Source of the DNA: Eledone cirrhosa | Lineage: Eukaryota | Reading direction: 5' to 3' | Assembly: GCA_964016885.1 (NCBI GenBank) | Contig: OZ024744.1 | Coordinates: 88,722,001 to 88,786,000 of the forward strand | DNA: 64,000 bases | In this document: piece after piece, positions 5,436 to 62,911 of the stretch | Numbering within the stretch: position 1 is the first letter of the stretch | Layout: every line of letters begins with the position of its first letter | Program-made: the position numbers and the translations under genes | Notes under the pieces: generated by a model | The model's input: the letters and a program-made list of their open reading frames with translations, nothing else | What the model was told of the DNA's origin: nothing | Database searches by the model: none

Positions 5436-5439
5436 ATAC

Positions 5440-7740: not shown

Positions 7741-7744
7741 TTTT

Positions 7745-20724: not shown

Positions 20725-21670
<946 letters not shown>

Positions 21671-27288: not shown

Positions 27289-27289
27289 T

Positions 27290-30309: not shown

Positions 30310-30344
30310 GTGGTCTTTCCCATCTTTTCCACTCTATTTTAAAC

Positions 30345-33300
30345 ATGACCTCACTCAGAATAGGCAGCATAAATGCGCGTGGCTTGGGGTCGTCATGGCA
30401 GCAGGGTCACCTGCTCAACGACCTCAGGTCACTAAACATAGATGTAGTGGCCATCAGCGAGACGAGAATCTCCGAAGCACGGGCCTTCGCACCGATCTTC
30501 GGCGGCTACGATGTGTACGCATCTCCCAGCCGTCCTGGATCGGGTGGAGGAGTTGCTGTGCTTTTTCGGAGAGGTTTAGATCTCGTCATACGGGCCATCT
30601 TCCTGGACCCAGAGGGTAAGCTGGTGGTGCTGGACGTGACCAGCGGAGACGGGCAAGCTTTCAGGCTAGTGGCCGTCTATGCCCCGACAGGAGCAGGGCG
30701 GCCTGATTTCTTCCGGCGTCTGGAGACCTTTCTTGGAACGTCCCGCTCTTTAGTGTTAGTGGGCGACTGGAACGGCATCTTAGATGCACGCTGGGACTGT
30801 GTGGGATTAGCGGATAGGGGTGGAGGGTGCAAGAGCCTCACCAACCTGCTCAGGCGTTTTGAACTGTCTGACAGGTACCGATTGGATTTCCCGAATGTGC
30901 CAATGTGGACTTGGACAAACCGCATAGGGTCATCCAGATCATATCTAGATAGAGTATTTTGTAGGGAAATAGATAGGTCTAGCATAGGCTGTCCACAATT
31001 CAAGATAGTCAGCTACACGGACCACAAATTCGTGATCTGTGTGCTTGACTTAGATAGGCTTCATAGACGAGGACCCGGCTACTGGAAGCTAAACGCGTCC
31101 TTACCAGCGCGCAAGGCCTACAGAGACCGGATTAGCGAACTAGTTAAGCGGGCGTTGACGGGGGCCATCGTCAACAACAAGTGGTGGTTTGCTCTGAAAA
31201 GAGCGATTAGATTAGAATCGATTAGGTTTAGTAAGGCTTTAGCAATAGAGAAAAATAGAGCAGAGGGAGAACTAGTTAGAAAATTAGACGAGGCGCTTAG
31301 CAAAGGCATTGCGACCGACGTGCTTGCGGCGAAATTGGCCCTTGACCAATTCTTCAATGCAAAGCACGAAGGCTGCGTTGTCAGAGCAAGGGTGCGTGCT
31401 CTCAGACACGAGGGGACGAAAGCCGTTCAATGGGCCCGAGTGGCGGGGGCGCGTCGTGGCAACAAAGCCACGATCCGGTCTTTGGTGGACCACGACGGGC
31501 GCATGCTACTCGATCCCGGGCAAATGTGTGAAGCTTTTCAGCGACACTTCGCTCAGCTGTTCGGGGGCAGCGGTGGGCCGGGTAGAGGGATGGACTTTAG
31601 TGTCTACCTCGACGGACTGCCGCGGCTCTCGGCCACTGAGGCGAAGTGTTGCGAAAAGCCGATAACAGCCGCTGAAGTAAGGGAGGCAATGACTGGCTGC
31701 ACAAGGGGTAAATCGCCTGGTTTGGATGGTCTGCCCTATGAACTTTACGTACAGATGCCAGACTTGTTCGGAGGCCTCTTGGCGGACGTCTACTGCAACT
31801 GGCAACAGAACGGGAGAATTCCCAGTTCTGTGAGCCGAGGAGCGGTGGCACTGCTGAGAAAGGATCCGAACAAGGGGGATAACATAGACAATTTCCGGCC
31901 CATAACTCTGCTAAACACAGAGTTTAAGATTTTGGCCAAGGTGCTAGCAAAGAGGTTGGCGCTTGTCGTTGGTGGTCTGGTGGGAGAGGCGCAGACATGC
32001 GCCATTCCCGACAGATCCATCCACGACAACCTCCACCTCATGCGATACATCGTAGAGAGGGTAGCTAGGGAACCTGGCACGGGTGGGTCCTTGATCAATT
32101 TAGATCAGTCGAAAGCTTTCGATAGGGTCGACCATCGTTACCTAGCGGCAGTCCTGAGGGCGGCTGGCTTTGGGCCCGTCTTCAGAGGCTGGATCGCTGC
32201 CATGCACAGCGACATCTGCTCTGTAGTGAGAGTGAACGGTCACCTGTCGGAACCGTTCAACATCATGCGCTCGGTCCGCCAAGGATGTCCCCTCTCGTCC
32301 CTCTTGTACGTATTGACTCTCGAGCCATTACTGCACAAACTGGAGACGTTGAGGGGAGTCCCGCGCGAACTAGGATGCGGAAGATCCGTGTCAGCATATG
32401 CGGACGATGTCACCGTAGTGGTGTCGAACGCCAAACACATCGAGGCGATCGGCACTACACTAAGAGAATACGAAGCGGTAACAGGAGCAATGATCAACCA
32501 GGAAAAGTCAGTGGGCCTGCAGCTCGGCACCTGGAGAGGCAGGTCCATGCCGTCCAACAGCGTCGTCGGGCGCTGGACGGATGGACCGGTTAAATTGCTA
32601 GGGGTCTGGTTCGGTCCGGACCTCCAGACGGACAAAAACTGGGACGAGGTGACGAGCAGGGTGGCTTCTCTCACCCAGAAATGGGCGGAGAGGAAGCTAT
32701 CCCTGAAAGGTCGAGCGGAGGTGGCTAACGCGTACATCGCGTCTGTCATCTGCTACCGCCTAACCGTCGTACCTTGTCCTAAGCCTCGCCTGACTGCGCT
32801 GGAGCGTTTGCTCTTTCGCTTTTTGTGGAAGGGACGTGCTCCGATGGTCAGGCGGTCCATCTGTTGTCAACACCCGCTACGTGGAGGGCTGGGCATGCCG
32901 TGGCTGATGATGCGCAGGCACGCGCTCAGGCTACGACATCTCCACCTCTTCCTCGACGGTGATCAGGTGTGGTCGCCGTTTGCTAGACGCGTTTTTCCCC
33001 AGCTCGTTTCCTTGACGGAGCTGCAGTCCTGGGTCAAGCGAAGACCGAGAGGGAGCGCCTGGAGACTGGAATGTCTTCAGGCGCTCACAGCCCTCGACCA
33101 ATCGGGCAATGTGATCGGTGGAAACTCCACCTCGGCGTTCTATAGAGGATTAGTGGAGGGGAAGAGCGACGACGTACTTGGGGAAACTCTAGGCGTCGAC
33201 GAAAATCAACTAGCCAATCTCTTCGGAAGAACTTTCGGGCCAGGGCCTATGGACAACTTCCAGAAATCTCTGGCCTGGCAGTGCTACCGAGGATCCTTGC

Positions 33301-33764
33301 CAGTTCGGGATAAACTCTACAGGCATGGAGGTGCCGTCAGCCGGGCATGTCCGAGATGCGCGCAGGGCGACGAAACCGTCCTGCACGCACTCGTCCAGTG
33401 TCCGAAAATTGCTGACTTGTGGGTTTATGTCGAACACCTGCTGTCGCGTTTAGGACGGATCCAGCTATCATCTGAGTCTATCGTGAGGATTGCCCCGCCC
33501 TCCTCCTTTAGCCGGGAAGGGCAGGCAGTTTTTATCTGTCTGGTGGCCATGGCGAAAGAGATAGTATGGTGGACACGTTTGAAAGGGCTGAAGACGAGCA
33601 CTTACCTCTTCGGTGATGCTCTGATTGACTTTTTCAAATTTCATTTGAAAAGGAAAATCAGAGTAGAGAAGGAAGTGCTCTCTTCCCAGCATTTTGTTGA
33701 AAGATGGGTGAGAGAAGCAAGAATGGCCCGAGTGAATGGGCCGACTCTGAGTATATATCTGTAA
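30345..33764 (+). CDS. Tx1 ORF2 APE-RT, intact 1139 aa
   Basis: Same motifs as 11693-15112 with few substitutions. Confidence 0.97.
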   Translation: MTSLRIGSINARGLGSSWQQGHLLNDLRSLNIDVVAISETRISEARAFAPIFGGYDVYASPSRPGSGGGVAVLFRRGLDLVIRAIFLDPEGKLVVLDVTSGDGQAFRLVAVYAPTGAGRPDFFRRLETFLGTSRSLVLVGDWNGILDARWDCVGLADRGGGCKSLTNLLRRFELSDRYRLDFPNVPMWTWTNRIGSSRSYLDRVFCREIDRSSIGCPQFKIVSYTDHKFVICVLDLDRLHRRGPGYWKLNASLPARKAYRDRISELVKRALTGAIVNNKWWFALKRAIRLESIRFSKALAIEKNRAEGELVRKLDEALSKGIATDVLAAKLALDQFFNAKHEGCVVRARVRALRHEGTKAVQWARVAGARRGNKATIRSLVDHDGRMLLDPGQMCEAFQRHFAQLFGGSGGPGRGMDFSVYLDGLPRLSATEAKCCEKPITAAEVREAMTGCTRGKSPGLDGLPYELYVQMPDLFGGLLADVYCNWQQNGRIPSSVSRGAVALLRKDPNKGDNIDNFRPITLLNTEFKILAKVLAKRLALVVGGLVGEAQTCAIPDRSIHDNLHLMRYIVERVAREPGTGGSLINLDQSKAFDRVDHRYLAAVLRAAGFGPVFRGWIAAMHSDICSVVRVNGHLSEPFNIMRSVRQGCPLSSLLYVLTLEPLLHKLETLRGVPRELGCGRSVSAYADDVTVVVSNAKHIEAIGTTLREYEAVTGAMINQEKSVGLQLGTWRGRSMPSNSVVGRWTDGPVKLLGVWFGPDLQTDKNWDEVTSRVASLTQKWAERKLSLKGRAEVANAYIASVICYRLTVVPCPKPRLTALERLLFRFLWKGRAPMVRRSICCQHPLRGGLGMPWLMMRRHALRLRHLHLFLDGDQVWSPFARRVFPQLVSLTELQSWVKRRPRGSAWRLECLQALTALDQSGNVIGGNSTSAFYRGLVEGKSDDVLGETLGVDENQLANLFGRTFGPGPMDNFQKSLAWQCYRGSLPVRDKLYRHGGAVSRACPRCAQGDETVLHALVQCPKIADLWVYVEHLLSRLGRIQLSSESIVRIAPPSSFSREGQAVFICLVAMAKEIVWWTRLKGLKTSTYLFGDALIDFFKFHLKRKIRVEKEVLSSQHFVERWVREARMARVNGPTLSIYL

Positions 33765-34026
33765 ACTAAAGGTGGAAAACTGGGAGAGGGCACTTGCCTT
33801 GGTGGTCAGGGTCATTGTGGCTTTTTACTGGGCTTTCTCCACAAATGTCCCTCCGAAGTCTCCCCCCTATTGGGGAATTTTTTTCATTGTTATTTTCATT
33901 GTTATTTTTGTTACATCCTCTGTTTTTGTTTTTTTACACGCAGAAATGCCCATTTGTACCGTCCTGCATTGTCCTGCACTGTCCTTAATGTCTACTTTAT
34001 GTAAACCCTTGTGGTTAATAAAGAAA

Positions 34027-34080
<54 letters not shown>

Positions 34081-34081: not shown

Positions 34082-35772
34082 CGGTCTGTTCGGACGCTTT
34101 TTGCTCGCTCCCAGTAAGTCGTTTTATTTACGTGTTATAATTATTATTTGTTTCATTTTTCTTGTTGTTAAAGGGATATAAGCCCTTGCACTTTGCCCTG
34201 TGAATGGGAAAGTATAATACTTGGGCCTTTTGGCCCAATTATTTGAACAAAATTTGAATATTTTACATTTAAAAAAAAAAAAGAAAATGGCTGAGCCACG
34301 CCCTCCAGCAATATGTCTGGTGTCGTGTGACAACGGCGCAAAAGTTGAGAGGAGGGTTACAGAAATTCATACAACAAACACCACCACAAACAACAAAGAC
34401 AACAACATTGAGAACACTAATTTTTAAAAAAATTACCAAAAACATAACCAACTACAACAGTGATAACAGCAACAAGACCAACAACACCGTTTGTAGCAGT
34501 AGCAACAGCAACAGCACCAACAACAAGACCAGTAGCAGCAGTGACGGCAGCAATAATGGTGCCGCTGAAAAAGGGGCCACTTCTTTCGCAGGTGTAGCTT
34601 AAAATATAGAGACAGTGCTAGTCACCGAGGAGGAGATGGCAGTCGCAAGAGCCATGGTGTAGAGAAACGACAATAGAGTTTCCCTAAAACCTCCACCCGA
34701 TTTCTTCAAAGACCAGCAGCTGCGCACACGGTGCCTTACTGCACCGTAAGCAACGTGTCACATCGGGTGGGGAGAGCCACGGAGGCTCAAATCCAAAAGG
34801 CCTTGGGGTGCGTCTGGGCGCTTAAAACCCACAGTCCTGGGTCAGTCTAATGTGATCGGTGGAAACTCCACCTTAGCGTTCTATAGATGATTAATGGAGG
34901 GGAAGAACGACGACGTACTTGGGGAAACTCTAGGCGTCGACGAAAATCAACTAGCCTATCTCTTCGGAAGAACTTTCGGGCCAGTGCCTATGGACAACTT
35001 CCAGAAATCCCTGGCCTGACAGTGCTACCGAGGAGCCTTGCCAGTTCGGTCGGAATAAACTCTACAGGCATGGAGGTGCCGTCAGCCGGGCATGTCCGGG
35101 CTGCGCGCAGGGCGACGAAACCGTCCTGCACGCACTCGTCCAGTGTCCGAGCATTGCTGACTTGTGGGTTTATGTCGAACACCTGCTGTCGCGTGTAGGA
35201 CGGATCCAGCTATCAGCTGAGTCCATCGTGAGGATTGCCCCACCCTCTCCCTTTAGCCGAGAAGGACAGGCAGTTTTTATCTGTCTGGGGGCCATGGCGA
35301 AAGAGATAGTATGGTGGACACGTTTGAAAGGACTGAAGACGAGCACTTACCTCTTCGGTGATGCCCTGATTAACCTTTTCAAATTTCATTTGAAAAGGAA
35401 AATCAGAGTAGAGAGGGAAGTGCTCTCTTCCCAGCATTTTGTTGAAAGATGGGTGAGAGAGGCAAGAATGGCCCGAGTGAATGGGCCTACTCTGAGTATA
35501 TATCTGTAAATTAAAAGTGGAAAACTGGGAGAGGGCACTTGCCCTGGTGGTCAGGGTCACTGTGGCTTTTTAATGGGCTTTCTCCACGAATGTCCCTCAG
35601 AAGTCTCCTCCGTATTGGGGAATTTTTCATTGTTATTTTTTTGTTACATCCTCTGTTTTTGTTTTTTACACGCAGAAATGCCCATTAGTACCGTCCTGTA
35701 TTTTCCCGTACTGCCCTTAATGTCTACTTTATGTAAACCCTTGTGGTTAATAAAGAAAGCATTATTATTATT
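34081..35772 (+). mobile_element. Tx1-like copy 4: third 5'UTR/ORF1 type joined to the ORF2 3' end by a large internal deletion
   Basis: ORF1 remnant (SFAGVA, EAQIQKALG) to ~34830, then cagtcctgggtca and aatgtgatcggtggaaac from ORF2; same 3'UTR; (ATT)n flanks. Confidence 0.85.
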
Positions 35773-35938
35773 GGTCGGACGCCATGCTTTGACGCATAGA
35801 GTTACGGCCCTTGCCATTCTGAGCTCAAATCCAGCCGAGGTTAACTTTGCCTTTCATCCTTACGGGGTCGATAAAATAAAGTACCAGTAATGTACTGGGC
35901 AATTGGGGGCCTTGTGCCAAAAGTAGAAACAATTATTA
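35773..35938 (+). mobile_element. 5'-truncated SINE family 1
   Basis: ggtcggacgccatgcttt...aaagtagaaacaattatt. Confidence 0.85.
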
Positions 35939-36209
35939 CTAAACAATTATTAGTAAACAGAGGCCAGCTAAGGAATTTGAAGGAGAGTGAGAGAGTGAAA
36001 GAGAGATAGACACGGGGGGGGGGGGGTGAGAAGAAATTTCTGCCGCTGATGCCTGCTGTCTTTTTTTCAAACTGTACTTCCTGGGATTTTCATTCTGTTG
36101 ATTTGGGCAGTCTTTATTTTTCTTCGTCCGCCATGTAACGTTCACAAAGACTGTCCATATGCTTAAACGAAGGCCTTATTAATTGAGACATATCAATCGT
36201 ATCATCTCA

Positions 36210-36283
<74 letters not shown>

Positions 36284-36341
36284 ATCTCTATCTGTCTATC
36301 TACCGACATATCAATATCAATATATATCTATTCATACATAC

Positions 36342-36382
<41 letters not shown>

Positions 36383-36461
36383 TGTATGCATATATATACA
36401 TATATATATGTATATGTGTATATATATATATATATGTTTATATATATATATATGTATATAT

Positions 36462-36510
<49 letters not shown>

Positions 36511-36515
36511 CAAAC

Positions 36516-36571
<56 letters not shown>

Positions 36572-36762
36572 GTATGTATGAATAGATATATATTGATATT
36601 GATATGTCGGTAGATAGACAGTTAGAAAGATGGAGACAGAGAGAATGAAAAGGAAAGCGAGAAAAAGAGATAGATAGTGAGAGAGAGATAGACAGATAGT
36701 GAGAGAGAGAGGGGGATGGATAGATAGATAGACAGATAGAGAGAGAGAGATGGTTAGATAGA

Positions 36763-36833
<71 letters not shown>

Positions 36834-36885
36834 TATATATATATACGATATTAACAAAGGGAAACTATATTTATAAAACCATATT

Positions 36886-36950
36886 TATTTCATTATACAT
36901 ATTTCAAGGATACCATGTTAAATTATGGTATGCCTTCATCAGACAAAATA
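36886..36950 (-). ncRNA. Minimal type-I hammerhead ribozyme, intact core
   Basis: tattttgt-CTGATGA-aggcatacca..tggtatcctt-GAAA-T-ATGT-ATA-atgaaata. Confidence 0.8.
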
Positions 36951-37032
36951 CAATATATATCAGTTTTATAAATAAGCATTGACGTACCCTTTCAAAATGC
37001 GACCATTACTTTTGGAGGACATCAGGATATTG

Positions 37033-37097
37033 TATTTTGTCTGATGAAGGCATACCATAATGTAACTTGGTATCCTTGAAATATGTATAATGAAATA
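37033..37097 (+). ncRNA. Minimal type-I hammerhead ribozyme, intact core
   Basis: CTGATGA 37041-37047, stem II, GAAA 37078-37081, AUA cleavage triplet, 8-bp stem I with two G-U pairs. Confidence 0.8.
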
Positions 37098-37224
37098 AAT
37101 ATGGTTTTATAAATATAGTTTCCATTTGTTAATATAGTATATCTACTCCAAATACTTGTCGAGTGCTTTATATCAGTTATAAAAATATTTACTTGTTGTA
37201 TCCCAACAATTTAAATAGAACTTT

Positions 37225-37368
<144 letters not shown>

Positions 37369-37414
37369 AATGAAAAGTATAGAAATTGTTGTAGCGAGAA
37401 GCTAACAGTATTCC

Positions 37415-37457
<43 letters not shown>

Positions 37458-37460
37458 TAT

Positions 37461-37657
37461 ATAGGAATAAGTATGACCCTGACGGCAGAGCTCAAGCTAG
37501 TTCGGCGGGTATTTCTGGACGTAGTCCAGAAATAGCCGTCGAAATTGCTTGAGCTCTGCCGTCGGTGTCATACTTATTCCTATTTCCCCCACTACTACTC
37601 TAAGTATTGAGTACTCTGGTGCGTTATGGTCCATCTGGTTCCTTACCACAATTCCTT
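37461..37657 (+). mobile_element. Foldback mini-element family A
   Basis: Hairpin ataggaataagtatgac...gtcatacttattcctat plus tail; (TA)n on both sides. Confidence 0.85.
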
Positions 37658-37659
37658 TG

Positions 37660-37704
<45 letters not shown>

Positions 37705-38138
37705 CTTATGTGTGTATGCGAGAAGAGTAGCACCGTATATCTTTAATTTTCCTTTCCTATCTCTGTTTCGTGACTCATCATTTTTACTGGCAGCCATAAT
37801 TACTTTGCGACAAGAGACCAGTTTTCTTGGTTCATATTATACCTAACGTTTTCTCTTTCTTTCCTTTTCTTTTCTAAACAGTCTCTTCTTCACATTATAC
37901 TAGTACCATTCCCGTATTTATTTATGTGTAATTTTAGCTTAATTGTGATGTGTACTTCACATCTTAACAACACTAATCAATAAATGAGTTATGTCCTTCA
38001 AATCACATTCTGTAGTCTTAAAACCGAAAGAACATGTCCAACGGTGTAGGCTTTAGATATAGAAAAAGTCGAGACAGTCACGGCTGGAATGCCTTTATAA
38101 CTCTTTCTTTTTTTTCTCAATCATGGTTTACATAGAGT

Positions 38139-38179
<41 letters not shown>

Positions 38180-38692
38180 AATGGATTCTGATTTAGGCAG
38201 AAGGCCAACAATTTTGCGGGAGGGGAAAGTCGATTAAATCGAACCCAGTGCATTACTGGTACTCTACTTTATTTTATCGACCCAGTAAGGATGAAAGGCA
38301 AAGCTAATCTTCGGTCGGATTTGAAATCAGAACGTTCAGAGCCGTAACTCTACGTCGCGAAGCAGAATGTCTGACATTCCACCGATTCTGCCAATACATC
38401 GCCGTAAACAACAACAATAATAATTGTTTCTACTTTTGACACAAGGTCAGCAAATACCCAGTGCATTACTGGTACTTTATTTTATCGAACCCCGTAAGGA
38501 TGACAGGCAAAGTTAACCTCGGCGGGATTTGAACTCAGAATGGCAATGGCCGTAAATCTATGCGTCATAGCATGGCGTCCGACCCTCTACCGATAATAAT
38601 TGTTTCTACTTTAGGCACAAGGCCAGCAAATAATCAGTGCATTACTGGTACTTTATTTTATCGACCCCGTAAGGATGAAAGGCAAAGTCAAC
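38180..38692 (-). mobile_element. Three tandem SINE family 1 copies in an (AAC)n/(AAT)n tract
   Basis: Reverse complement of the central domain at ~38250-38300, ~38465-38520 and ~38640-38690. Confidence 0.85.
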
Positions 38693-38888
38693 GCAACAAC
38701 ACAGTAAACAGTTTCTGATTATTTATGCTAGTGCCTATATGACTATTAAATGTTCATGCATGAGGTGTCATTGTGTATATTTCTTTGAACATTATTACAC
38801 TGGGTCTTGTGCTGGTCTTGTGCCAAAAGTAGAAACAATTATTACCAGTTACCTCCCTTTATATATTTCAGCGGTATTGACATCAAAG

Positions 38889-38946
<58 letters not shown>

Positions 38947-38950
<4 letters not shown>

Positions 38951-39138
38951 AATTGTGGTAAGGAACCAGATGTACCATAACGCACCAGAGTACTCAATAC
39001 TTAGGGTAGTAGAGTGGGAAATAGGAAAAAGTGTGACCCCCCGACGGCAGAGCTCAAGCCGTTTCGACGGCTATTTCTCGACTCAAATAGCCGTCGAAAC
39101 GGGTTGAGCTCTGCCGTCGGAGCCATACTTTTTCCTAT
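38947..39138 (-). mobile_element. Foldback mini-element family A, reverse orientation
   Basis: Tail on the left; hairpin gacggcagagctcaa..gtttcgacggctattt / aaatagccgtcgaaac..ttgagctctgccgtc. Confidence 0.85.
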
Positions 39139-39152
39139 ATATATATATATAT

Positions 39153-39610
39153 AAAGACAGTATAGAGAGAAAAATACACAGAGGTATGTGTTCAATTTTG
39201 GTCCAGTCACACCACCATGGGCTATATAGCGAGCATATTCTCTCTTTCCACCATGTGTGTTTACTAATTATCTAATATATTATTAGAAGTGTAGATCATA
39301 TTGTTGGTCCACCTGTTGATAAGCCTTCAATGGTATGAATCTTCACTTTATTTGTGGTGAAAAATGCTATAGAGCATGTCCAGGTATTTGTACTTTGTAA
39401 TTCATTATTTTAATCGATATGAATTCTCCGTTCCTTTCGTAGACAATATGTTTTTCCCCCTGATGGTATTATATCCTCTATAATTAAACACATATCTCTT
39501 TGTGTATTTTTCTCTATATATGCTGTCTTATAAAGAGCCGGGAATCTAATCCATGAGCTCATTAAATTATAGGGGATTAGCGTGAGTCTTTGACTCCGTT
39601 TTTAATTATA
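39153..39610 (+). mobile_element. Older foldback element (~50-bp arms 39153-39197 and 39482-39530) with a decayed hammerhead-like motif
   Basis: aagacagtatagagagaaaaatacaca.. pairs with ..tgtgtatttttctctatatatgctgtctt; ctgatgg-tattata..tataat-taaac-acat-atc at 39460-39496. Confidence 0.55.
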
Positions 39611-39631
39611 CATACATATATATATATATAA

Positions 39632-40146
39632 TAGTATTCAAAATATTAATGAATTAATACGTTCACATAATCAAAATATATGTTTTATTATATATATTTA
39701 GGAGGTACTGTGTTGTTTGTTCAGTACATCCTCATCAGATAAAACATATGAATTTATGTATGACATACCTCAACTGTATTAATGGTTCAATTCCAGAATT
39801 GGCAGTACTGGAATTGAACCATCTGACTGCCAAGACTGGAATTGAACCATCAACACAGTTGAGGTATGTCATACACCAATTCATGTATTTTATCTGATCA
39901 GGACGTACTGAAAAACAGCACAGTACCTCCGAAATATATATAATAAAACATATATTTTGATTATGTGAATGTTTCCATTTATTAATATTTTGAATAATAT
40001 TAATAACTCCAGAAAACTTCCTTGTAGAGTGCTTTTAATCTATTGTAAAACTATATTCATTGAGTAATCAATGAACCATATTTAATCTTTGATATATCTT
40101 TGGTACAGCTTTATAATATTATAGATATCTTACCACATGCTCTTAG

Positions 40147-40148
<2 letters not shown>
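39632..40148 (+). mobile_element. Foldback mini-element related to family B, a hammerhead motif in each arm
   Basis: Arms ~39632-39808 and ~39826-39999 plus tail; minus motif 39679-39748 has a 10-bp perfect stem I and CTGATGA but TAAA; plus motif 39886-39952 has CTGATCA and GAAA. Confidence 0.85.
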
Positions 40149-40194
<46 letters not shown>

Positions 40195-40618
40195 CTGGTC
40201 TACATTTTTCTCCTCTCCCTCCTCTCTCTCTCTCTCTCTCTCTATAACCCCTTCATTTCTCATCTCTCTTTCACCATCACTCACTCTCTCTCATGCTCTT
40301 CGTTCGATTTGTGGTTATATCTTAACCCCCTAAACATTTACTATACTAATAATATAAAACTGGTAACAGCTTTCTTCCGCATTGAGAATACTCAAATGTT
40401 ACGAATATTCATATACACTCATCACTTCAAACATTTCCAGTAAATGGCTAGACGCGCTCCTTCATCCACTTTTCTAAAAAAAACAAATCATACACAAAAC
40501 GCCAGCACCGACAGTTTTGCAAGAGATGTCACCATGAATGGACCTATTATTTTTATCTAAAGACATTTTTTCAAATTCCATCCCGCCCGTCCCCTTAATC
40601 TATTTTATTTCTTATTCT

Positions 40619-40745
40619 TTCTTCTGATGAAGGACTAGCCTGCGAAACGTTAAGACCCTCTTCCTGCTATATCAAGCGTTAACTTAATGTATACCTTCCA
40701 TATTTTACCGATTGTGTTGTTATTTCTGTTTACCTTTTACTTACA
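40619..40745 (+). ncRNA. Hammerhead-like motif followed by a repeat 3' end
   Basis: tctt-CTGATGA-aggactagcctgc-GAAA-CGTT-aaga; downstream sequence shared with 551-645; ends in (TA)n. Confidence 0.55.
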
Positions 40746-40779
40746 TATATATATATATATTTACCTGTTTACCTTTTAC

Positions 40780-40813
<34 letters not shown>

Positions 40814-41170
40814 GTAGATAAATCTACCAAGAGTTTACGGTAGTGTCCAATCCGTATGAAGAACTCAATGTATGTCGGATATCATGGAAAGAAGAGATGT
40901 AATGAAAAATCACTTTCGGTGAAAGATAAACGGTATACAGAGTCAAGATAAAATATTAAACAAATAATGAATAAAACAATGAAACAGTTCCTTATATTAA
41001 ACAAAAAAAGTTCATTATTTAACGATCGTTTCTAGGATATATATGTGTTAGAATTGGCATGCATATTCAACAGATCTATGTACAAAATTATACAAAATTA
41101 TACAAACTATCAAGATTAAATATACATACCAACACATATATACGCCGTCTTCAGAAATAATTCATAGGGG

Positions 41171-41205
<35 letters not shown>

Positions 41206-41529
41206 CATAGCGGATATGTAAATACATTCGTGAGTTTTATATCGAATAATATTCATATACGATTCGTTTGCAAGCCAACAGCCTCATTATGCTAGGTTTT
41301 ATAGATGACCAACGCCATGCTTTTGTTATAGCGGTGACAGAATGAAACAATCGACAATAATATTGGTTAATCTTGATAGTTTGTATAATTTTGTATAATT
41401 TTGTACATAGATCTGTTGAATATGCATGCCAATTCTAACACATATATATCCTAGAAACGATCGTTAAATAATGAACTTTTTTTGTTTAATATAAGGAACT
41501 GTTTCATTGTTTTATTCATTATTTGTTTA

Positions 41530-41537
<8 letters not shown>
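40814..41537 (-). mobile_element. Foldback mini-element family C with flanking DNA copied into its loop
   Basis: Arms ~40951-41119 and 41367-41535 are near-perfect inverted repeats; tail 40814-40950 is homologous to 62620-62750. Confidence 0.85.
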
Positions 41538-41583
<46 letters not shown>

Positions 41584-41591
<8 letters not shown>

Positions 41592-44500
41592 TGTATTTAA
41601 GAAAGCCACAACAATGCAAAGGGAAATCTCGAGGTAGGAAGTGAAATATAGATAGGAAAAACAGGTGAAAGTGAAAGTTGAGAGAGACAAAGATGAAAAC
41701 AAAACAAAGGTAGAAGGGTTACCGTAGTAGAGATTTTAATCCCAATATTTCGGGCTCACGCCCATCAACGGGGGAAAAGTTCCAAAAGGGGGGAAAACAG
41801 GCCAAGCGGAGAAAGTGTTGATGTCGTTAAGACAGGAATGCCGTTATGGGGAGAAAAATATTTAAAATTTAAACGAGGGAGAGAATGCGCGTGCGCGTGA
41901 TAAGCTGTGGCAAAAGCTACTGACCAAATGGGTTAAATCAAGAGGGTGCGTTAGCGTGTGAAAGCCTTAAGATATGTGTATGTAAATATATATGTGTGTG
42001 TGACTGTGTGTGTATAGGTGTAAGTGTGTATATGTGTGAGTGTGTGTGTGTGTGAAAGGTAGTGGGCTGTAGAAGTTGGAAATCAAAGGGTGTGAAAGGT
42101 GGTAGGTTGTAAAATATGTGTGCGTGTATAAATATAGAAGTGTGTGTGTGTAAGCGTATGGGTATACATGTGTGTGTGTAACTGTGTATGTATATGTGTG
42201 AGTGCGTTTGTGTGTGAAAGATAGTGGGCTGTAGAAGCTGGAAATCAAAGGGTGTGAAAGGTGGTAGGTTGTAAAAACATGTGTGCGTGTAAAATATAGA
42301 AGTGTGTGTGCATGCGTATGGGTATGCATATACGTGCGTGTGTGTGAATATAACAGGCCGTAGGCTGTGAATGGTCATTATGGTTAAATTAGCCATGTCA
42401 GCTCATTTCTCTCGGCCCGGTTGTTAAGTGGGGGTCTGAGGTTCTTAATAACAAGTGCTTCCTTTATCCTTAAGGATCCGATGCTGCGTTCAGTCGCTAG
42501 GACTGTGACCAAGGGTCTACCCTGTGGGTTTCCGCATTTGAGGATATGTTTACGGAAGGAAGATGCGTTGGTGTTGATATGTTCCTTGATACGAACATGT
42601 AGGGGTCGGATGGTGCTACCTATGTAAAACTTGTTACATTTATCGCATTGAATCTTATATACGACATAGGTGCGTAGGCAATCTGCCCCCCGTATCGGGC
42701 AGTTGCTGAGGGAACAAGTCCTATCTGCCTCGTAGGGTTTGTTGGAGAGGCATCTTCGCAGCGAAGGTCCTGTGTGGGCCAAATGTATGTCAAGTCCCTC
42801 CGTACGTATGGCCCTGCGGATGGCGTTCGTGGTACATTCACTCAGGTGGGGGATTTTAAAGAAGCACCTGCTAATATTAAGTTTTCTAGTGGGTGTCGGT
42901 CTACTGGGTCTGGGGTCTCTAATTCCGTTAATCAGTCGCTTGGGATAACCATTAGATCTGAGTAGATTACGGAATTGCGTGGTATGGGTGAGACCACCCA
43001 TCGGGTCGCTGCATCTGTTAGTGATCCGTGTCAGTTCATTTAGGACATAGCCTCTCTTAGCGTTGTTGGGGAGGGCTGAGTTATAATGCACAAATAGGTC
43101 CTTGCACGCTGCTTTGCGGTAGAAAGTGGTGTTTATGTCTCCATGTTCCGAGATGTTGATACGGAAGTCGAGGAGGGCGAGTGACCCGTCTTCTTCCGGG
43201 TGTTCGATGGTGAAATCGATGTGTTGGTCAGTATCGTTGAAGATTTGGTGAATTTCATTCGCCATCTCCCGGGAAGAAGTCAGTATCAGGATATCATCAA
43301 CGTATCTGGAGTAGAAGGCGACGGCGTTGGGTTGGCAGGTATTGAGTGCCTTGCGCTCCAGGTGGTCCATGTACGAGATCGCAAGTATGCCGGACAGACT
43401 AGAGCCCATAGGTAGCCCAGAGATTTGTTTGTACGTGTGGCCAAGGAAATTGAAGAGTGCATTATCCACAACGAAGGAGAGGAGTTGGTGGATGTCCGTG
43501 TGTGTGAGTCCGAAGCAGTGTAGGTTAGATGCTCGGACTCGTTCGGTCAACAGGTCGACAGCTGGGGATGCTGGTACGGAGGTATAAAGGGAGACCACAT
43601 CAAGACTGAAGGCATAACCGTTGTCCTTTCTGGTGTTGGGCGCCAGATGGTGTAGTCGCTCCAAGACTTCCATTGAGCTGCAGACGTGGGCTGGTAGTGT
43701 GTGTAGAATAGGTTTCAGTAGTGTGGAGAGCAGCCACGATATTTTATAGAGTGGGCCCTCCACGCTAGAGACAATGGGCCTGATTTTCAAATCGGGTCCT
43801 TGTTTATGTGTTTTGACCAAGTGGTAGAAGGTGGGTAATTAGCTGTTTCGAGTCATTATGTTGTTTTTTACCTTCTTTGGCAGTTTTCGTTGGACACAGA
43901 TGTTAGTCCATATGGTGTTAATGCCTTCCTCGATTAGAGTCGAGGAGGTCCCTGTGACTTTGGAGTAGAGGCTGTGGTCATTAAGATGTTGGAGAGCTAA
44001 GTTGTTGTAGGTCTCTCTCGAGATGACACAGAATTCTTTCCCCTTGTCAGAGGGAAGGTACACAAGGTTCCTGGATCTTAGGTTGGTGAGAGTATTAAAT
44101 TGTGCATTGGTGAGGTTGCGTTTGTTGTGTGTGTGTGTGTGTTGGGAAAGGATGTTAGAGATAGAATGTTTCAACCTGAGTAGTTTAGTGTCAAGTTCGT
44201 GGTTGGTGGGTGGGGGGTGGAGTGGGTTGTCGAGGTGATACGTGGGGAGTGTGGGGTGGGTTGTGGGGTTGTAATCGATCTCGGTGTTGTTTTGGATGGC
44301 GGTTAGCCATTTCAGTTGATAAGCTGTCCGACAGAAGTTGGTTTCGATGTCGAGTTTCAGTCTATCATCGAGACGCTGTGTAATGATGAACTTGGGTCCG
44401 AGGCGCAGAAGTTCGAGTTCGTCGTTGGTGAGGGTACCGGTTAAGTCGGTAACGAGGTGTGAAGCATCGTTGGTAGGTAGATCGATGTTGGGGGGTGTAG

Positions 44501-45428
44501 CGGAGGGTGTTGTACAGCTGTTGCCCCTGGTGTGGTTGTAGTCGGTCCGTCTGTGGGAGCGGATGTTGTCAATGTAGTATTTGTTTACAGTCCATTCGTA
44601 TTTACGTACAAGGCGCTGTTTATCAAATTTGACTCTGGTGTGGTAACACTGATCTATAGCTTTGTGTAATTCCTGGACTTGGTGGTCAGGGGTGAGGATT
44701 GGAGCTATACGATCTAAGTGCTCAGAAAGCGTTTGTATACGGAGTCGCAGTTGGTGGTGGTGGTGTCGTAGTATTTTCTTGATAAAAGTGCGTTGAATGT
44801 GGCGGATGGTGTTTTCGAAGGATGGTGATCGTAAACATTCGGGTAGATGTATATTCCTGATGGTGGTTGGAATGATGTTGTTCTTTAGGCAGCGTTTTAA
44901 GAAGGTAATTTGGCAACCGAGTTTGGCACGATTCTCCGATAGTCTGAATAGGTCCCTTATGGGTGCAAACAAGTCCTGGCTCAGGTGTAATGATAAGAGG
45001 GTGTTAAAGTTTGCTTGAAGCATTGTGAAATGTTGATTTAACCCATTTGGTCAGTAGCTTTTGCCACAGCTTATCACGCGCACGCGCATTCTCTCCCTCG
45101 TTTAAATTTTAAATATTTTTCTCCCCATAACGGCATTCCTGTCTTAACGACATCAACACTTTCTCCGCTTGGCCTGTTTTCCCCCCTTTTGGAACTTTTC
45201 CCCCGTTGATGGGCGTGAGCCCGAAATATTGGGATTAAAATCTCTACTACGGTAACCCTTCTACCTTTGTTTTGTTTTCATCTTTGTCTCTCTCAACTTT
45301 CACTTTCACCTGTTTTTCCCATCTATATTTCACTTCCTACCTCGAGATTTCCCTTTGCATTGTTGTGGCTTTCTTAAATACATATTTTTACACATTTCAC
45401 AATGCTTCAAGCAAACTTTAACACCCTC
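41584..45428 (-). mobile_element. Penelope-like element with inverted pseudo-LTRs, in (TA)n
   Basis: 41584-41941 is the reverse complement of 45033-45390; 45391-45428 extends into the ORF start (MLQANFNTL). Confidence 0.95.
42384..45023 (-). pseudogene. Penelope RT + GIY-YIG endonuclease ORF (~879 codons) with one in-frame stop at 43839-43841
   Basis: PSDKG, RPIVS, SLDVVSLYT, GLPMGS, RYVDD, VVYKIQCDKCNKFYIGST; the two ORF-track pieces are in the same frame. Confidence 0.93.
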
Positions 45429-45449
45429 ATATATATATATATATATATA

Positions 45450-45718
45450 ATGAAAGGGTAAAGAAATAACATGGTCGGCTGTACAAAAAGGGTTTTATTT
45501 ACAGTATTAACAATTGTTTCATTGATCAGGTGAGTCTAAAGGCCGCTGATCACTCGAAATTGCGTCACTCAACCTTAAATAACCTACATGAGAATTCTCG
45601 TAAACTCTAAGGAAACATCTTGTTGAGTCAAACAAAGCCGTACGTTAAAACTATCCACAATACAGAGTACTCACAACCTCTAACTGGAATACCTATAACG
45701 ATAACTTGTTATCCCATA
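45450..45718. repeat. Short insertion between (TA)n tracts with decayed hammerhead-like motifs
   Basis: Minus strand GAAACAATTGTTA near 45508-45520; plus strand ttgatca-ggtga..tcactc-GAAATTGCGTC; tail contains actct..gagtactc. Confidence 0.4.
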
Positions 45719-45739
45719 TATATATATAATTCATAGGGG

Positions 45740-45778
<39 letters not shown>

Positions 45779-46199
45779 CATAGCGGATATGTAAATACAT
45801 TCGTGAGTTTTATATCGAATAATATTCATATACGATTCGTTTGCAAGCCAACAGCCTCATTATGCTAGGTTTTATAGATGACCAACGCCATGCTTTTGTT
45901 ATAGCGGTGACAGAATGAAACAATCGACAATAATATCGTTTCTGGGTTTCTATGACTCGACTGACTTGTCATACACCCACATACACAGAAAATATAACAA
46001 AACAAGCATATACACGCATGCACATATACACACTCACACGCACACATTTTAAAATAGTCGAATATTCGAAGGTTCCAAAGACGCGCGTTCCAGTTGTTTT
46101 GACCAAAGGAGGCGCGTGCTCGTAATATTAACACACAAATGGCTGAATATTCCACATGCAGGTTTAATCTTAAAGTAATTCTGAGATTCAAGCTAACAA

Positions 46200-46342
46200 C
46201 ATTTGTGACCCTTTGTATTACAGGTACAACTAATTTATTTTTTCAGCTGGGTAGACTGGAAATGTCAAAATGTGCCACCGAGAAATGAACACACGATCTT
46301 ACAATCCTGAATAAAACACTCTAACTACTAAGCCATACGCTT
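46200..46342 (-). mobile_element. Decayed SINE family 2
   Basis: Resembles the reverse complement of 63088-63205 and matches 60550-60675. Confidence 0.5.
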
Positions 46343-46481
46343 TCAAATCTGAATGTAATGTCGTAAAACGAACTATAAATGTTTATCTATTTCACTTTCT
46401 CTTTTCTCTATCATTGCATTCATTACCAGTGCTGAAGTTGTTCTCTCTGTCGGAATCTAACAGATACTTTTCAAAGTCCAA

Positions 46482-46765
<284 letters not shown>

Positions 46766-48199
46766 TAGAGAACTACGCGGATGCCTGACCTGTTCTGGAT
46801 GTACAAACATGATGGGATGATCTAGCGTGGAAGAGTTATCCTTCTTGGCTGCTCGATTAAAGTTAACATGAAGCTCTGGCTAAAGAACGACAAGAAGTAG
46901 TAAACATATTAAAAATAGGTACAAGTTAAGACATTGGTCGGATTAAACAGACGACAGTGCTTAAACGTGCTACTTTATAATCTTTATACCATGAAGGGAT
47001 AAAAGGCATATTTTAATTCGGTGGATTTGAACTCAGAACGTAAGGTGTCTTAAGTAAAGACAGCTGGGCATTTTGCTCGATGTTTTTATATTCTTGCCCA
47101 CCAACTGCGCTTCAAAAAATTAGAAATAATATTTAGAAATGCATAAAAAAAATAAAGATCTGATCTTTAGAAAGGACGAAACAAACAATGTTTACATATG
47201 TTTTTCCATTGCTCACACATCGGAGAGAAGAGCCATTTATTTTATGATGACAGGAAGCAGGATTTGAACTTATAACATATAGAGCATGAACGAATACCGC
47301 AAAGCATCTACGCAAAGCATCCAAAGCTTTAACGATTCTAACAATTCGTCGCCTTGAAATGCAAAATATAGTGAAATAAACATGATTAAAGATGAAAGTT
47401 TAACATAAAGAGTAAAATTCAGAGTAAATCCAATATTGTTTGAGGAGTGCAATTGCACGACTACAATTAGACATTATATATATAAACGCGAGAAAGAACT
47501 AGAAAGAAAATTGTAAAGCGTCAATTCGGAATGTAGAACAGTGCGATGTATATTCACAAGATTCGTTAAAGCATGATGGATGAATAGCAAGCTAAAAACA
47601 AACAAATGGAAGAAACAACAATAAGACAAGTTGTAATTGGAAGCACAGTAAAAATAAACACGGCAGGGATTATATTCAAAGGGAGGATCAACAAAAACTG
47701 GAATTACGGAAGCAGAAAAGAAGATCAGACACTGATCTAAAGTAAGCGATGATGAAACAGTATAAGAATGGAGTGACCGAATAGTTTAGTGCACCACCAT
47801 CTTGATAATTCTATATCAGTGTATTGTGATACGTCTGCATGTAATCTACACAATTATAGATCACTGCATTTGTGATGTGCTATATTTACCAGATTGAATC
47901 TACAAAGAAGGACGTAAGGAGTTTTCAGTGATAGCAACACACTTGCTGCCATATGTAGAATTAGCAATGAATTTATACAACAATCATTGCAGAGAAGACG
48001 ATTTTGTGTATTTTGTGTATCCAGTTGAATAGAATACACTTTGCTGTGGAGTTAGATCAAGTTCCTTCGATTGGATACAGTGTAGAGTATTAATAGAACA
48101 TACATGTGCAGATATTAGGAAATCTATAAGCCAAATAATCTCTCTCTTTCTCTCTCTCTCTCTCACTTCTCCCCTCTCTATCGCTTTATTTCTCTCTCT

Positions 48200-48282
<83 letters not shown>

Positions 48283-48734
48283 GTGAGGTTTTTTTTTTAC
48301 AAAATGAAAAATAACCGAGGTGTCCTACACCAGTGAAAGTATAAAGAAAAAAGGATGAAATCAAAAATGCAGCTGGAGTCTTATTTTTAAAATTACGAGA
48401 TCCAACCACGAGACAGATACCACTTACCGCACATCTAGACATATGCGCAAGTAATAATTCCAAGTCTTCCTATTTTACCTTTGCGCTGACAATACAACAG
48501 AACAAATACGAATAAATAAGGAAAATATGTTTATTCAAAAATATAGACCAGCATTAAATATGGTTTAATATACATTATGTCAACACCAAAACATGCTAAC
48601 AATCCAAACAGACACATACACACACACATTACACCTTCTACTTTAGAAAATAAAAACCCGAACTAAATAAATCTTAACATACGTTTGCGCTGACAATAGA
48701 ACAGAACAAATACGAATAAGTAAGGAAAATATTC

Positions 48735-49045
48735 CTACTAACGGAATCATTTTCCTACACACACACACAAACACACACAATATATATTCTCTTCATCTTA
48801 ACATGCTAAACATACTCCCACACACACATAACACCCATACACATACACATACACATACACAACTCCCTCCCCCATTTCTACTAATAGAATGATTTTCCTA
48901 CACACATATACACACACACAAAATATATATATTCTCTCCATCTTAACATACTCCCACACACACACATATCACCCATATACACACACACACCAACTCTCTC
49001 CCCCATTTCTACTAATAGAATCATCTTCCTATACACACACACAAG
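48735..49045. repeat. Short tandem repeat, ~150-bp unit, about two copies
   Basis: ctactaa..gaatcattttcctacacaca recurs at ~48736, 48879 and 49009. Confidence 0.7.
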
Positions 49046-49729
49046 CACACAAATAAACATACATAACTTTACTTTCTTTATTTCAATAACAAATCTGAAT
49101 TCTGACACTCCAGCGAACCAACCATATTAACTGAACCAGAACAATTCTCCCATCCCATTTCTCTTGACCATTATCTTTTCCTTGTCATAAAATTCTCTAA
49201 AAGGTTACAAAATAAATTCCCAAATACGGGCGCGAAATTTAATGAACTTGTTCACGTGACAACCATAATTTCATTTATAACAAATCAAATTACATTTATT
49301 TTAAAAAAAAGCTTTCGTGAGCCCCCCTTTTTTAAGTAAAAAGAAGTTCAAACACTCATATATGAAAAAACAACCTGAGAACCCCCCTCCCTTGTTTGAA
49401 GAAATTTGTAACGCGAACTGGCGCGAAATTTATTATACTTATTGACCAACCAATCAAATTACTTCTCTAAAAACCTGCCGTTTTGAGCCACTTTTTTCCA
49501 TATAAAACAAGTAACATTCAGAGACCAACTAGATGTGAGAAAATCCACAGACCCTCCATCTCAACTCTACTTTTGAAAAGCGAAACGGGTAAAGGAACCA
49601 AATAAATATATATATATTTTTTTTTTAAATAAGACTTCAGTTGCATTTTCGATTTCATCCTTTTATATATATATATATATAAATAACAGATTAAAGTTTA
49701 AGTCTTCACATTTTTTATTATCTCTCTCC

Positions 49730-49789
<60 letters not shown>

Positions 49790-49818
49790 ATATATAATAT
49801 ATATATATATATATATAT

Positions 49819-49869
49819 AAAGGTAGCCACACTCATATATGTATCTGTGACTATGTCTAAATATATCCC

Positions 49870-49915
<46 letters not shown>

Positions 49916-49976
49916 GGGATATATATGCATATATTTAGGCATAGTCACAGATACATATATGAGTGTGGCTACCTTT
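49819..49976. repeat. Inverted repeat centred on a (TA)n tract
   Basis: aaaggtagccacactcatatatgtatctgtgactatg...catagtcacagatacatatatgagtgtggctaccttt. Confidence 0.9.
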
Positions 49977-50378
49977 CACGGTGTAGCACAATGAAAAACT
50001 TAATTAAATAAAAAATTATTAATCAGAGCTATATAAAATTGCAAGTTTGAAGAACAGTTAAATAAAATAAAATTTACCTAATTTTTCTTCTCCCTAATCC
50101 GTAGAAATCAACTAGATATATAATCATTTAAACGGAGCTAAGTTTAAAATGTAACTTCGAAGAAATAACAGATAAATGATACAGACTATCCCCCGCGACG
50201 AACAGTCAGATAAAATTTACACAGTCTTTCTTCTTAGACCGTAGAAATTAACTAGACAAATAATCAATTACACCCAGATCTAAATTATTTCACGGCGAAA
50301 CAATTACGCCAGCAAGCGACGTTTGTTGAACGTAAAAATAAAATAAATATTATTAATTGTAAGTCCCACACAACAAAC

Positions 50379-52890: not shown

Positions 52891-52921
52891 ACATACATAC
52901 ATACATACATACATACATACA

Positions 52922-52955
<34 letters not shown>

Positions 52956-53599
52956 AATACATACATATTTTCTGGCAGATTGCCAAGGAAAGACTCCAAA
53001 GCAAGTTGAACATCCCTACTGGAAGAGAATATCAAACGTAAGGTTATCTCTTTATCAAAAGGTTATGTTGTGAGAAAACTTCAAAGTGACAGTAATATAG
53101 ATTGCTGTAGTTTCTCCATCTTGAAAGTGTGTATTAGCTCTCATATTGAAGAATCTATACGCAATCCAGGAACAGGAAATAACAACAAAATAACGGATTT
53201 TTAAAAGAGATAGTGGTGCATTTATAACATATAGGTGTGACAACTGATGTAGAATTCATTAACACCGAAGAGTTGACTCACATCATAAACATATATCTGC
53301 AAATATAATCATGCTATTGTGAACCTGTGGAGCATGTTGTTGTAACCAAAACACTAAACATGCGAATGTCTGTTTATCTGTCCCTCTGTTTGTCAGTCTG
53401 CTGACATCTGAAAGCTATTGTCAGATTGAACACAAACATACAATAATCCATACAGGAATCGCAAATACAAGATTCTAAAAGCCTTCGCTAAGTACAAACC
53501 ACTACCTCGCTATGGATAACTGACGCTGCACACCAGGTCCGGACACGGAAGAGCCGAACTTCCACTGTCATCGCCTTCACCCCCTCCATCCCCCACACC

Positions 53600-58447: not shown

Positions 58448-58465
58448 ACACATATATGTGTGTAT

Positions 58466-60874: not shown

Positions 60875-60875
<1 letters not shown>

Positions 60876-62296: not shown

Positions 62297-62911
<615 letters not shown>

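What the first reader, a model, noticed from the sequence alone, without database searches (positions are those of the whole stretch)
41157..41363. A ~207-bp copy of flanking DNA sits inside the loop of a foldback element
Seen: 41157-41363 equals 45726-45936 apart from (TA) tract length. Only the right arm, (TA)n tracts, the Penelope element and the 45450-45718 insert lie between them, and 45726 onward continues as unique DNA. Inference: before the later insertions this sequence bordered the target (TA)n, so integration copied element, then host flank, then inverted element. That would be a direct record of template jumping and a route for local duplication.
Basis: partly seen in the sequence, partly recalled or inferred. 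Interest (0 to 1): 0.7.

Follow-up and report, generated by a model that had tools for sequence, protein, structure and literature searches.

The report
Flank copy inside Penelope-derived hairpin insertion
A short jumping-gene insertion that forms a hairpin carries, at its apex, an exact copy of about 200 bases of the DNA next door, most likely copied while the insertion was being joined up; such side-copies are known for other retrotransposons, and this is a clean single example for the poorly understood Penelope type.

Summary
41157-41363 equals 45726-45936 except for (TA)14 versus (TA)16, and there is no third copy in the window. The 'foldback' is a short, ORF-less, asymmetric inverted repeat built like Penelope-like (PLE) terminal repeats in (TA)n: a long arm with tail and a hammerhead-like motif (40814-41161, minus) and a short arm (41367-41535) identical over 169 nt. 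The copy sits at the arm-to-arm junction. In the only relative (62301-62755) the arms join there directly, with no flank. The copy's first 5 nt complete the hammerhead's stem I, an inferred microhomology. Best reading (0.62): during one two-ended insertion, the first cDNA end primed on the opposite broken end, copied about 200 nt of flank, and switched back. That supports template switching. It does not show that the reverse transcriptase did it, or that the 45449-45715 insert came later. Only 1 of 10 loops tested matches flanking DNA. Similar events are reported for L1, and host DNA between PLE repeats for rotifers. The window looks like octopus DNA. New variant of a known kind; interest 0.42.

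The parts
40792..40813 (.). (TA)n target remnant left of the element
40814..41161 (-). Long arm of the ORF-less PLE-type element; its 3' end faces the left (TA)n; 40814-40950 is the tail that the short arm lacks
   Evidence: 137-nt overhang; alignment to relative 62431-62755
41014..41161 (-). Type I hammerhead-like motif: CUGAAGA core 41154-41148, 115-nt stem II region, GAAAC with palindromic helix III, 7-bp stem I whose 5' strand (41161-41155) overlaps the flank copy by 5 nt
   Evidence: fold z -5.2; not found by Rfam; cleavage untested
41157..41363 (+). Copy of right-flank DNA at the arm-to-arm junction (the finding)
41364..41366 (+). Three junction bases that match neither the flank nor the long arm at that register
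41367..41535 (+). Short arm, identical to the reverse complement of 40951-41119; lacks the hammerhead core and the tail; 3' end faces the right (TA)n
41537..41584 (.). (TA)n tract
41585..45428 (-). Near-intact C-terminal-endonuclease PLE with the same asymmetric plan: inverted terminal repeats 41585-41941 / 45033-45389 (356 of 357 identical), tail on one side only; reading frame 42384-45050 with one in-frame TAA at 43839-43841
45449..45715 (-). Undated PLE-like 3' fragment between two (TA)n tracts; 3' end resembles that of the fragment ending at 40744; hammerhead-like helix III present, core not intact
   Evidence: no second copy in window
45716..45727 (.). Short (TA)n remnant directly before the source segment
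45726..45936 (+). Source segment: host flank, continuous with DNA beyond 45936; includes an older 18-nt duplication (45726-45743 / 45773-45790) across (TA)16
62301..62755 (+). Only relative in the window: short arm 62301-62432, long arm 62431-62755; arms joined directly; 48-nt loop is the element's own hammerhead 5' half

Best explanation
One insertion of a short non-autonomous PLE-type element into a (TA)n tract, with a templated filler at its internal junction. Shown: the anatomy, the identity of the copies, and the position of the copy at the family's arm-to-arm junction. Inferred steps: (1) a PLE endonuclease, supplied in trans, breaks (TA)n, and both DNA ends are extended, giving a long arm with tail on the left and a short arm on the right, 3' ends outward. 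(2) The long-arm cDNA ends at the edge of hammerhead stem I; instead of joining the short arm it pairs through 5 nt with the exposed bottom strand of the right-hand end, just past the TA tract. (3) It is extended about 200 nt into host flank, perhaps to the limit of resection, and is released. (4) It re-primes at the start of the short arm, with 3 extra bases, and fill-in copies the short arm, (TA)n and the flank again. (5) The 3.8-kb PLE, and probably the 270-bp fragment, then landed in the remaining (TA)n and moved the copies from about 460 bp to 4569 bp apart. The copying enzyme was either the PLE reverse transcriptase acting on DNA or a host end-joining polymerase; the sequence cannot separate them, and I put it near even.
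For: Copies identical outside the TA tract and arms identical over 169 nt, so both are recent and compatible with one event. The relative's long arm also starts at the edge of stem I, and its short arm starts and ends at nearly homologous positions, so the short arm is normal family anatomy and the copy fills the normal junction. Arms are near-identical within each element (169/169; 127/130) but gappy and far less alike between elements, so they are remade from one template. The first 5 nt of the copy complete a 7-bp stem I; chance 0.2-1.2% from base composition, and four other hammerhead-like arms show stems I of 6-11 bp. 9 of 9 hand-picked TA-bounded inverted-repeat elements have one arm flush with TA and the other with an overhang, the published PLE tail pattern (PMC8557442, PMC3846280). 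A second element has a 17-nt direct copy of its own arm at the same kind of junction (39807-39823 = 39835-39851). A PLE protein cuts and extends both strands and starts at two sites in vitro (PMC11167929).
Against: A single case: 1 of 10 loops matches flank DNA. The microhomology is inferred from a predicted helix, was noticed after the fact in AT-rich DNA, and rests on no family consensus. The right junction has at most a 4-nt overlap interrupted by 3 extra bases. Rfam found no hammerhead family in 35000-50500 at E<=5; the relative's fold is not significant (z -1.26), and its similarity is strong globally (128 vs shuffle max 76) but marginal locally (41 vs 38). The order of the 45449-45715 piece is undated. 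The element shows no similarity to the neighbouring PLE's terminal repeat (27 vs shuffle max 29), so its mobiliser is not identified.
Confidence: 0.62

Rival explanations
1. Later repair: the foldback inserted normally, its hairpin apex broke afterwards, and host repair patched the break with nearby flank DNA.
For: Perfect 169-bp inverted repeats with short loops are break-prone (general knowledge, no call). Templated fillers from DNA near breaks are described for end joining (PMC2943611 passages; PMC11724301 abstract). TA tracts here carry other small flank copies with no element junction.
Against: The copy starts at the first base after a (TA)n tract, the likely insertion edge, and sits at the arm junction with no visible loss of either arm compared with the relative. 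That advantage shrinks if the 45449-45715 piece is older.
Confidence: 0.15
2. Long target-site duplication plus a second insertion: the short arm inserted with a 207-bp staggered cut, and a long arm inserted separately into the left (TA)n, fusing to the start of the duplicate.
For: Topologically the segment is a direct repeat around everything between the copies. Very long duplications are reported for truncated L1 insertions in cultured cells (PMC2912911 passage citing Gilbert et al.).
Against: It needs two independent insertions of identical sequence that together rebuild the standard long-arm/short-arm plan seen in 9 of 9 elements. PLE duplications described in A. vaga are 8-10 bp.
Confidence: 0.09
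3. RNA route: a read-through transcript of element plus flank self-primed or was jumped onto by the reverse transcriptase and was written back into its own locus.
For: Self-priming on read-through transcripts with template jumps was proposed for PLE captures in A. vaga (PMC3846280).
Against: It needs a transcript of this flank and a return to the same site; the copy starts at the TA edge rather than at an arbitrary transcript position.
Confidence: 0.06
4. Assembly or library artefact at a hairpin surrounded by (TA)n.
For: PLE tandem and inverted structures are known to trouble assemblies (PMC8557442 passage). The two copies are identical outside a microsatellite.
Against: Both ends of the copy lie in unique sequence with overlaps of 5 nt or less, too short for a mis-join, and they coincide with the element's own junction.
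Confidence: 0.05
5. The 207-bp segment is a dispersed repeat that inserted twice.
For: The window is a very small part of a repeat-rich genome, so absence here is weak evidence.
Against: No third copy, no end feature at 45936, and a locus-specific older 18-nt duplication inside both copies.
Confidence: 0.03

Closest known systems
Canonical C-terminal-EN Penelope-like elements with inverted pLTRs and a tail (PMC3846280, parts 1-4 of 5 read; PMC8557442, passages read)
   Same: Head-to-head inverted repeat, tail on one end only, (TA)n target, hammerhead-like motif in the repeat.
   Different: No ORF; tail 137 nt rather than 30-40; stem II region 115 nt; host flank copied into the junction.
Adineta vaga Pen1/Pen3a capture of host DNA between pLTRs (PMC3846280)
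   Same: Host DNA lies between PLE terminal repeats.
   Different: There the spacers are 0.9-1.5 kb or whole genes, the gene moved to a new site, and the text read does not trace a spacer to the adjacent flank; here the source is the neighbouring flank and the result is a local duplication.
L1 insertions with genomic DNA templated from near the integration site (PMC11702581: passages, section 7, legend passages of supplement file 1)
   Same: Extra sequence copied from beside the target into a retrotransposon junction; polymerase left open by the authors.
   Different: Different retroelement class; experimental cell clones rather than a germline assembly; L1 twin priming gives non-overlapping arms (recalled), whereas here the short arm duplicates the long one.
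Synthesis-dependent microhomology-mediated end joining (PMC2943611, passages)
   Same: Prime on a short repeat, copy, release, re-anneal; leaves a direct repeat across the junction.
   Different: The examples in the passages read are short; 200 nt is long for this route (recalled), and one end here is retroelement cDNA.
Non-LTR retrozymes and dispersed minimal hammerheads (10.64898/2026.07.22.740005, part 1 of 5; PMC4209133, passages)
   Same: Short non-autonomous PLE derivatives with type I hammerheads; pairs on opposite strands 100-700 bp apart were noted in Schistosoma.
   Different: Retrozymes are tandem direct repeats; this is an inverted, asymmetric pair with a complete hammerhead core in one arm only.

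Membership tests
Non-autonomous PLE derivative (pLTR-only insertion) | Inverted arms with 3' ends outward and a tail on one end only | tested here: met
   137-nt overhang on the left arm, 1 nt on the right; orientation taken from the hammerhead-like motif
Non-autonomous PLE derivative (pLTR-only insertion) | Type I hammerhead motif with short palindromic helix III in the repeat | tested here: inconclusive
   Own descriptor: best hit of the window, stem II score 16; 4 real hits score >=9 versus 0-1 in each of 8 shuffles, but total hits (8) lie within the shuffle range 1-10; Rfam negative; stem II far longer than the published 7-8 bp
Non-autonomous PLE derivative (pLTR-only insertion) | Insertion in (TA)n | tested here: met
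   TA tracts at 40792-40813 and 41537-41584
Non-autonomous PLE derivative (pLTR-only insertion) | Sequence homology to the pLTR of an autonomous PLE | tested here: inconclusive
   No similarity to the one full PLE in the window; the rest of the genome could not be searched
C-terminal-EN PLE (element 41585-45428) | Single frame with RT followed by GIY-YIG endonuclease, flanked by pLTRs | tested here: met
   RVT_1 E 4e-12, GIY-YIG E 3e-4, just under the curated cut-off; 37% identity over 899 columns to a full-length relative; repeats 356/357
C-terminal-EN PLE (element 41585-45428) | Clade (Neptune, Nematis, Poseidon, Hydra) by RT phylogeny | not tested
   No named reference set held; a Cys-rich linker is visible but its spacing is not the CX2-5CxxC
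MITE / foldback DNA transposon | Terminal inverted repeats at both ends | tested here: not met
   One arm is internal by 137 nt
Non-LTR retrozyme | Tandem direct units, each with a hammerhead | tested here: not met
   No such tandem array here; arms are inverted and only one has the core
Integration-associated templated insertion | Filler at the element junction identical to DNA beside the target | tested here: met
Integration-associated templated insertion | Empty allele shows one copy of the flank and no intermediate allele exists | not testable with these tools
   No eukaryotic genome or read collection on hand
Reverse-transcriptase template jump | The element's RT, not a host polymerase, copied the DNA | not testable with these tools
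   Needs biochemistry or repair mutants

The most novel reading that the evidence does not exclude
This genome holds several abundant families of ORF-less, asymmetric hairpin PLE derivatives whose two arms are remade at every insertion. Their arm-to-arm junction is a jump point where the PLE reverse transcriptase itself switches onto the opposite broken DNA end and back, so PLE activity at (TA)n tracts routinely makes local duplications of 20-200 bp and the junctions record the missing steps of the PLE cycle.
Probability: 0.2. Interest if true: 0.68.

Novelty: new variant of a known kind. Interest (0 to 1): 0.42.

Why it matters
How PLEs make their inverted terminal repeats and one-sided tail is still open (PMC8557442, PMC11167929). 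A junction that holds a traceable, oriented copy of the flank fixes the order and strand of copying for one event, and it points to a cheap genome-wide test: thousands of such short hairpin insertions could be read the same way. As a source of local duplication, one 207-bp non-coding copy has no shown effect.

Tried and rejected
Rfam scan of 35000-50500 at E<=5: 65 matches, all below gathering score, none a hammerhead. Loops of 10 hand-picked inverted repeats searched against the masked window: only the target loop matched flank DNA; the others matched their own arms, a sister element or copies of a larger repeat. Six-frame reading and tblastn with 27 PLE proteins found no coding remnant in the copied segment, the 45449-45715 piece or two unexplained loops. 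The idea that the copied segment is a decayed member of the same family: local alignment gave only a simple-sequence match. An 11-of-12 match between 45935-45946 and the long arm, at the point where copying stopped, was reached by 15 of 400 control positions; kept as an unproven lead. The automatic stem I search mis-paired the relative, the full PLE and the 45449-45715 piece; the relative was redone by hand (7 bp with the short-arm letters, 6 of 7 with the long-arm letters), the other two were not. Folding the loop as DNA gave no stable hairpin. MITE and retrozyme labels were rejected (membership table). No genome scan was run: the open collection holds only bacteria and archaea, and the viral and metagenome collections stayed unchecked, so the empty allele and genome-wide copy number remain open. 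Literature searches gave no report of adjacent flank copied into a PLE inverted junction; most subscription papers are outside that library, and supplements of the PLE papers were not read and may hold such cases.

Full report
Observation. The two segments are identical in 179 of 179 positions outside an internal TA tract of 14 versus 16 units, and the neighbouring letters differ on both sides. The unique 161 nt occur nowhere else in the window at permissive settings. The arms around the first copy are a perfect 169-nt inverted repeat. The finding is real and the coordinates are exact.

Setting. The window is repeat-rich animal DNA with 68 merged (TA)n tracts. The only named hits of the 3.8-kb element between the copies are from Octopus bimaculoides, at 53-55% identity, so the host is probably an octopus; the species is not determined. 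That element has RT followed by a GIY-YIG domain, one in-frame stop and inverted terminal repeats, with a tail on one side that repeats the start of the unit. This is the published PLE plan (PMC3846280; PMC8557442). Recently active Penelope families are listed for O. vulgaris (PMC13282606, part 1 of 3 read).

What the foldback is. It is not symmetric. The left arm runs 137 nt further out, to the TA tract at 40813, and further in, through 41161. Read on the minus strand it holds a hammerhead-like motif: core at 41154-41148, a long stem II, GAAAC with a palindromic helix III, and a 7-bp stem I. It is the best hit of my descriptor; hits with stem II score 9 or more number 4 in the window, all in foldback arms, against 0-1 in each of 8 shuffles, although total hits do not exceed the shuffles. 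The region folds with z -5.2. Rfam did not recognise it, so the ribozyme is a prediction. The 37 nt at the left of the loop are therefore element, not spacer. I picked 9 TA-bounded inverted-repeat elements by hand, leaving out palindromes centred on a TA tract and weak or internal pairs; 9 of 9 have one arm flush with TA and one with an overhang of 39-194 nt, the largest inflated by an adjoining fragment. I read them as short non-autonomous PLE-type insertions; for the target family no autonomous partner was found.

The relative. 62301-62755 aligns to the long arm along its length (global score 128, 200 shuffles max 76; local score only 41 vs max 38). Its long arm also starts at the edge of stem I, its short arm starts and ends within a few bases of the same positions, and the two join directly with a 2-nt overlap. 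Its 48-nt loop is its own hammerhead 5' half. So the short arm is normal anatomy and the flank copy fills the normal arm-to-arm junction. Arms are 169/169 and 127/130 identical within elements but much less alike between them, so they are remade from one template and are not an ancient palindrome.

Junctions. On the left, the first 5 nt of the copy are also the outer 5 bp of stem I. If the element ended there, as the relative does, this is a 5-nt microhomology; chance is 0.2-1.2% by composition, before allowing for having noticed it afterwards. On the right, the copy ends in 4 nt that match the long arm just inside the short arm's start, followed by 3 extra bases. The copy begins at the first base after the short TA tract at 45716-45727. 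Removing the PLE and the 45449-45715 piece brings the copies from 4569 to 458 bp apart.

Mechanism. Most likely one insertion in which both ends of a break in (TA)n were extended, as a PLE protein does in vitro on both strands from two start sites (PMC11167929, parts 1-2 of 4 read). The long-arm cDNA primed on the exposed bottom strand of the right end, copied about 200 nt, let go and re-primed on the short arm; fill-in then copied the flank a second time. The anatomy is shown; every step is inferred. A second element has the same jump-out-and-back shape on a small scale, a 17-nt copy of its own arm at the junction. Whether RT or a host polymerase copied the flank cannot be read from sequence; authors who saw L1 insertions with nearby genomic DNA left the same question open (PMC11702581).

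Against. It is one case; 1 of 10 loops matches flank DNA. The 45449-45715 piece cannot be dated and has a decayed motif, so adjacency at the time of insertion is assumed. One weak point for later arrival: with it in place, the same 5-nt word at 45447-45451 would have been the nearer landing site. TA tracts here also carry small flank copies with no element junction (16 of 18 inside the copied segment; 18 of 19 at 40726-40744 / 40765-40783; an inverted one at 49820-49872 / 49923-49975), so repair or slippage at TA tracts can make such copies without an RT jump. Later repair of the hairpin (0.15), a long target duplication plus a second insertion (0.09), an RNA route (0.06), artefact (0.05) and a dispersed repeat (0.03) remain.

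Novelty. Templated flank at retrotransposon junctions is known for L1, host DNA between pLTRs is known in A. vaga, and opposed hammerhead pairs were noted in Schistosoma (PMC4209133). Nine searches did not return a PLE case traced to the adjacent flank; the library lacks most subscription papers and PLE supplements were not read. Verdict: real, most likely an integration-time templated duplication, a new variant of a known kind, interest 0.42. The boldest reading, routine RT-driven flank capture by a class of hairpin PLE derivatives, has probability about 0.2 and would deserve about 0.68.

Noticed in passing
window 36845-37227, 39630-40147, 39154-39615: Further asymmetric hairpin elements between (TA)n tracts; the first two have hammerhead-like motifs with 30-nt stem II regions in both arms. 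The loops of 36845 (70 nt) and 39154 (284 nt) match nothing else in the window.
   Followed up: partly
window 329-538, 37463-37660, 38947-39135, 58452-58516: A separate family of short near-perfect hairpins with a one-sided tail of about 80 nt, always at (TA)n; 58452-58516 is a lone arm. My descriptor found no hammerhead in them.
   Followed up: partly
window 39807-39823 and 39835-39851: 17-nt direct copy of the element's own arm at the arm-to-arm junction.
   Followed up: yes
window 40726-40744 / 40765-40783; 41157-41174 / 41200-41217; 45726-45743 / 45773-45790: Small direct duplications of flank across (TA)n tracts, 18 of 19 and 16 of 18 identical.
   Followed up: partly
window 49820-49975 and 36287-36626: Inverted copies of flank centred on TA-rich tracts, 94% over 53 nt and 98% over 58 nt.
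   Followed up: no
window 41585-45428: The full PLE unit starts and ends within a few bases of the repeat/tail boundary, as if cut to unit length; it also holds a 162-nt tandem duplication at 42027-42329.
   Followed up: partly
window 40200-40744 and 547-663: 3' end of another PLE-like element with a compact hammerhead-like motif near 40626-40655 directly left of the foldback; its last 116 nt recur at 547-663, 88% identical.
   Followed up: partly
window 60875-61560: Decayed GIY-YIG-type PLE fragment after a (TA)n tract (tblastn E 1.5e-6).
   Followed up: no
window 9320-15426 and 27976-34080; partial copies 20734-21618, 23805-27295, 34849-35772: Two 6.1-kb direct copies, 98.7% identical, with frames of 800-1200 codons, plus older partial copies; most end at (ATT)n; not identified.
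   Followed up: no
window 3590-3780, 5248-5436, 6576-7009, 7547-7761, 15426-15812, 35773-35938, 38243-38692: Dispersed repeat of about 190 bp, 75-96% identical, often in tandem or beside (ATT)n/(AAC)n; resembles an octopus SINE (label recalled, no call).
   Followed up: no
window 3773-5027: 83-bp minisatellite, 15 copies, starting at the end of one of those repeats.
   Followed up: no
window 50400-53360: Decayed non-LTR-like coding sequence seen by eye, with a partial second copy at 53061-53355; family not tested.
   Followed up: no
window 48277-49663: Segment between TA tracts with 43-nt inverted ends (88%) and internal direct repeats; loop matches nothing outside itself.
   Followed up: partly
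window 56908-58257: 1.35-kb degenerate (TGG)n array with higher-order repeats.
   Followed up: no
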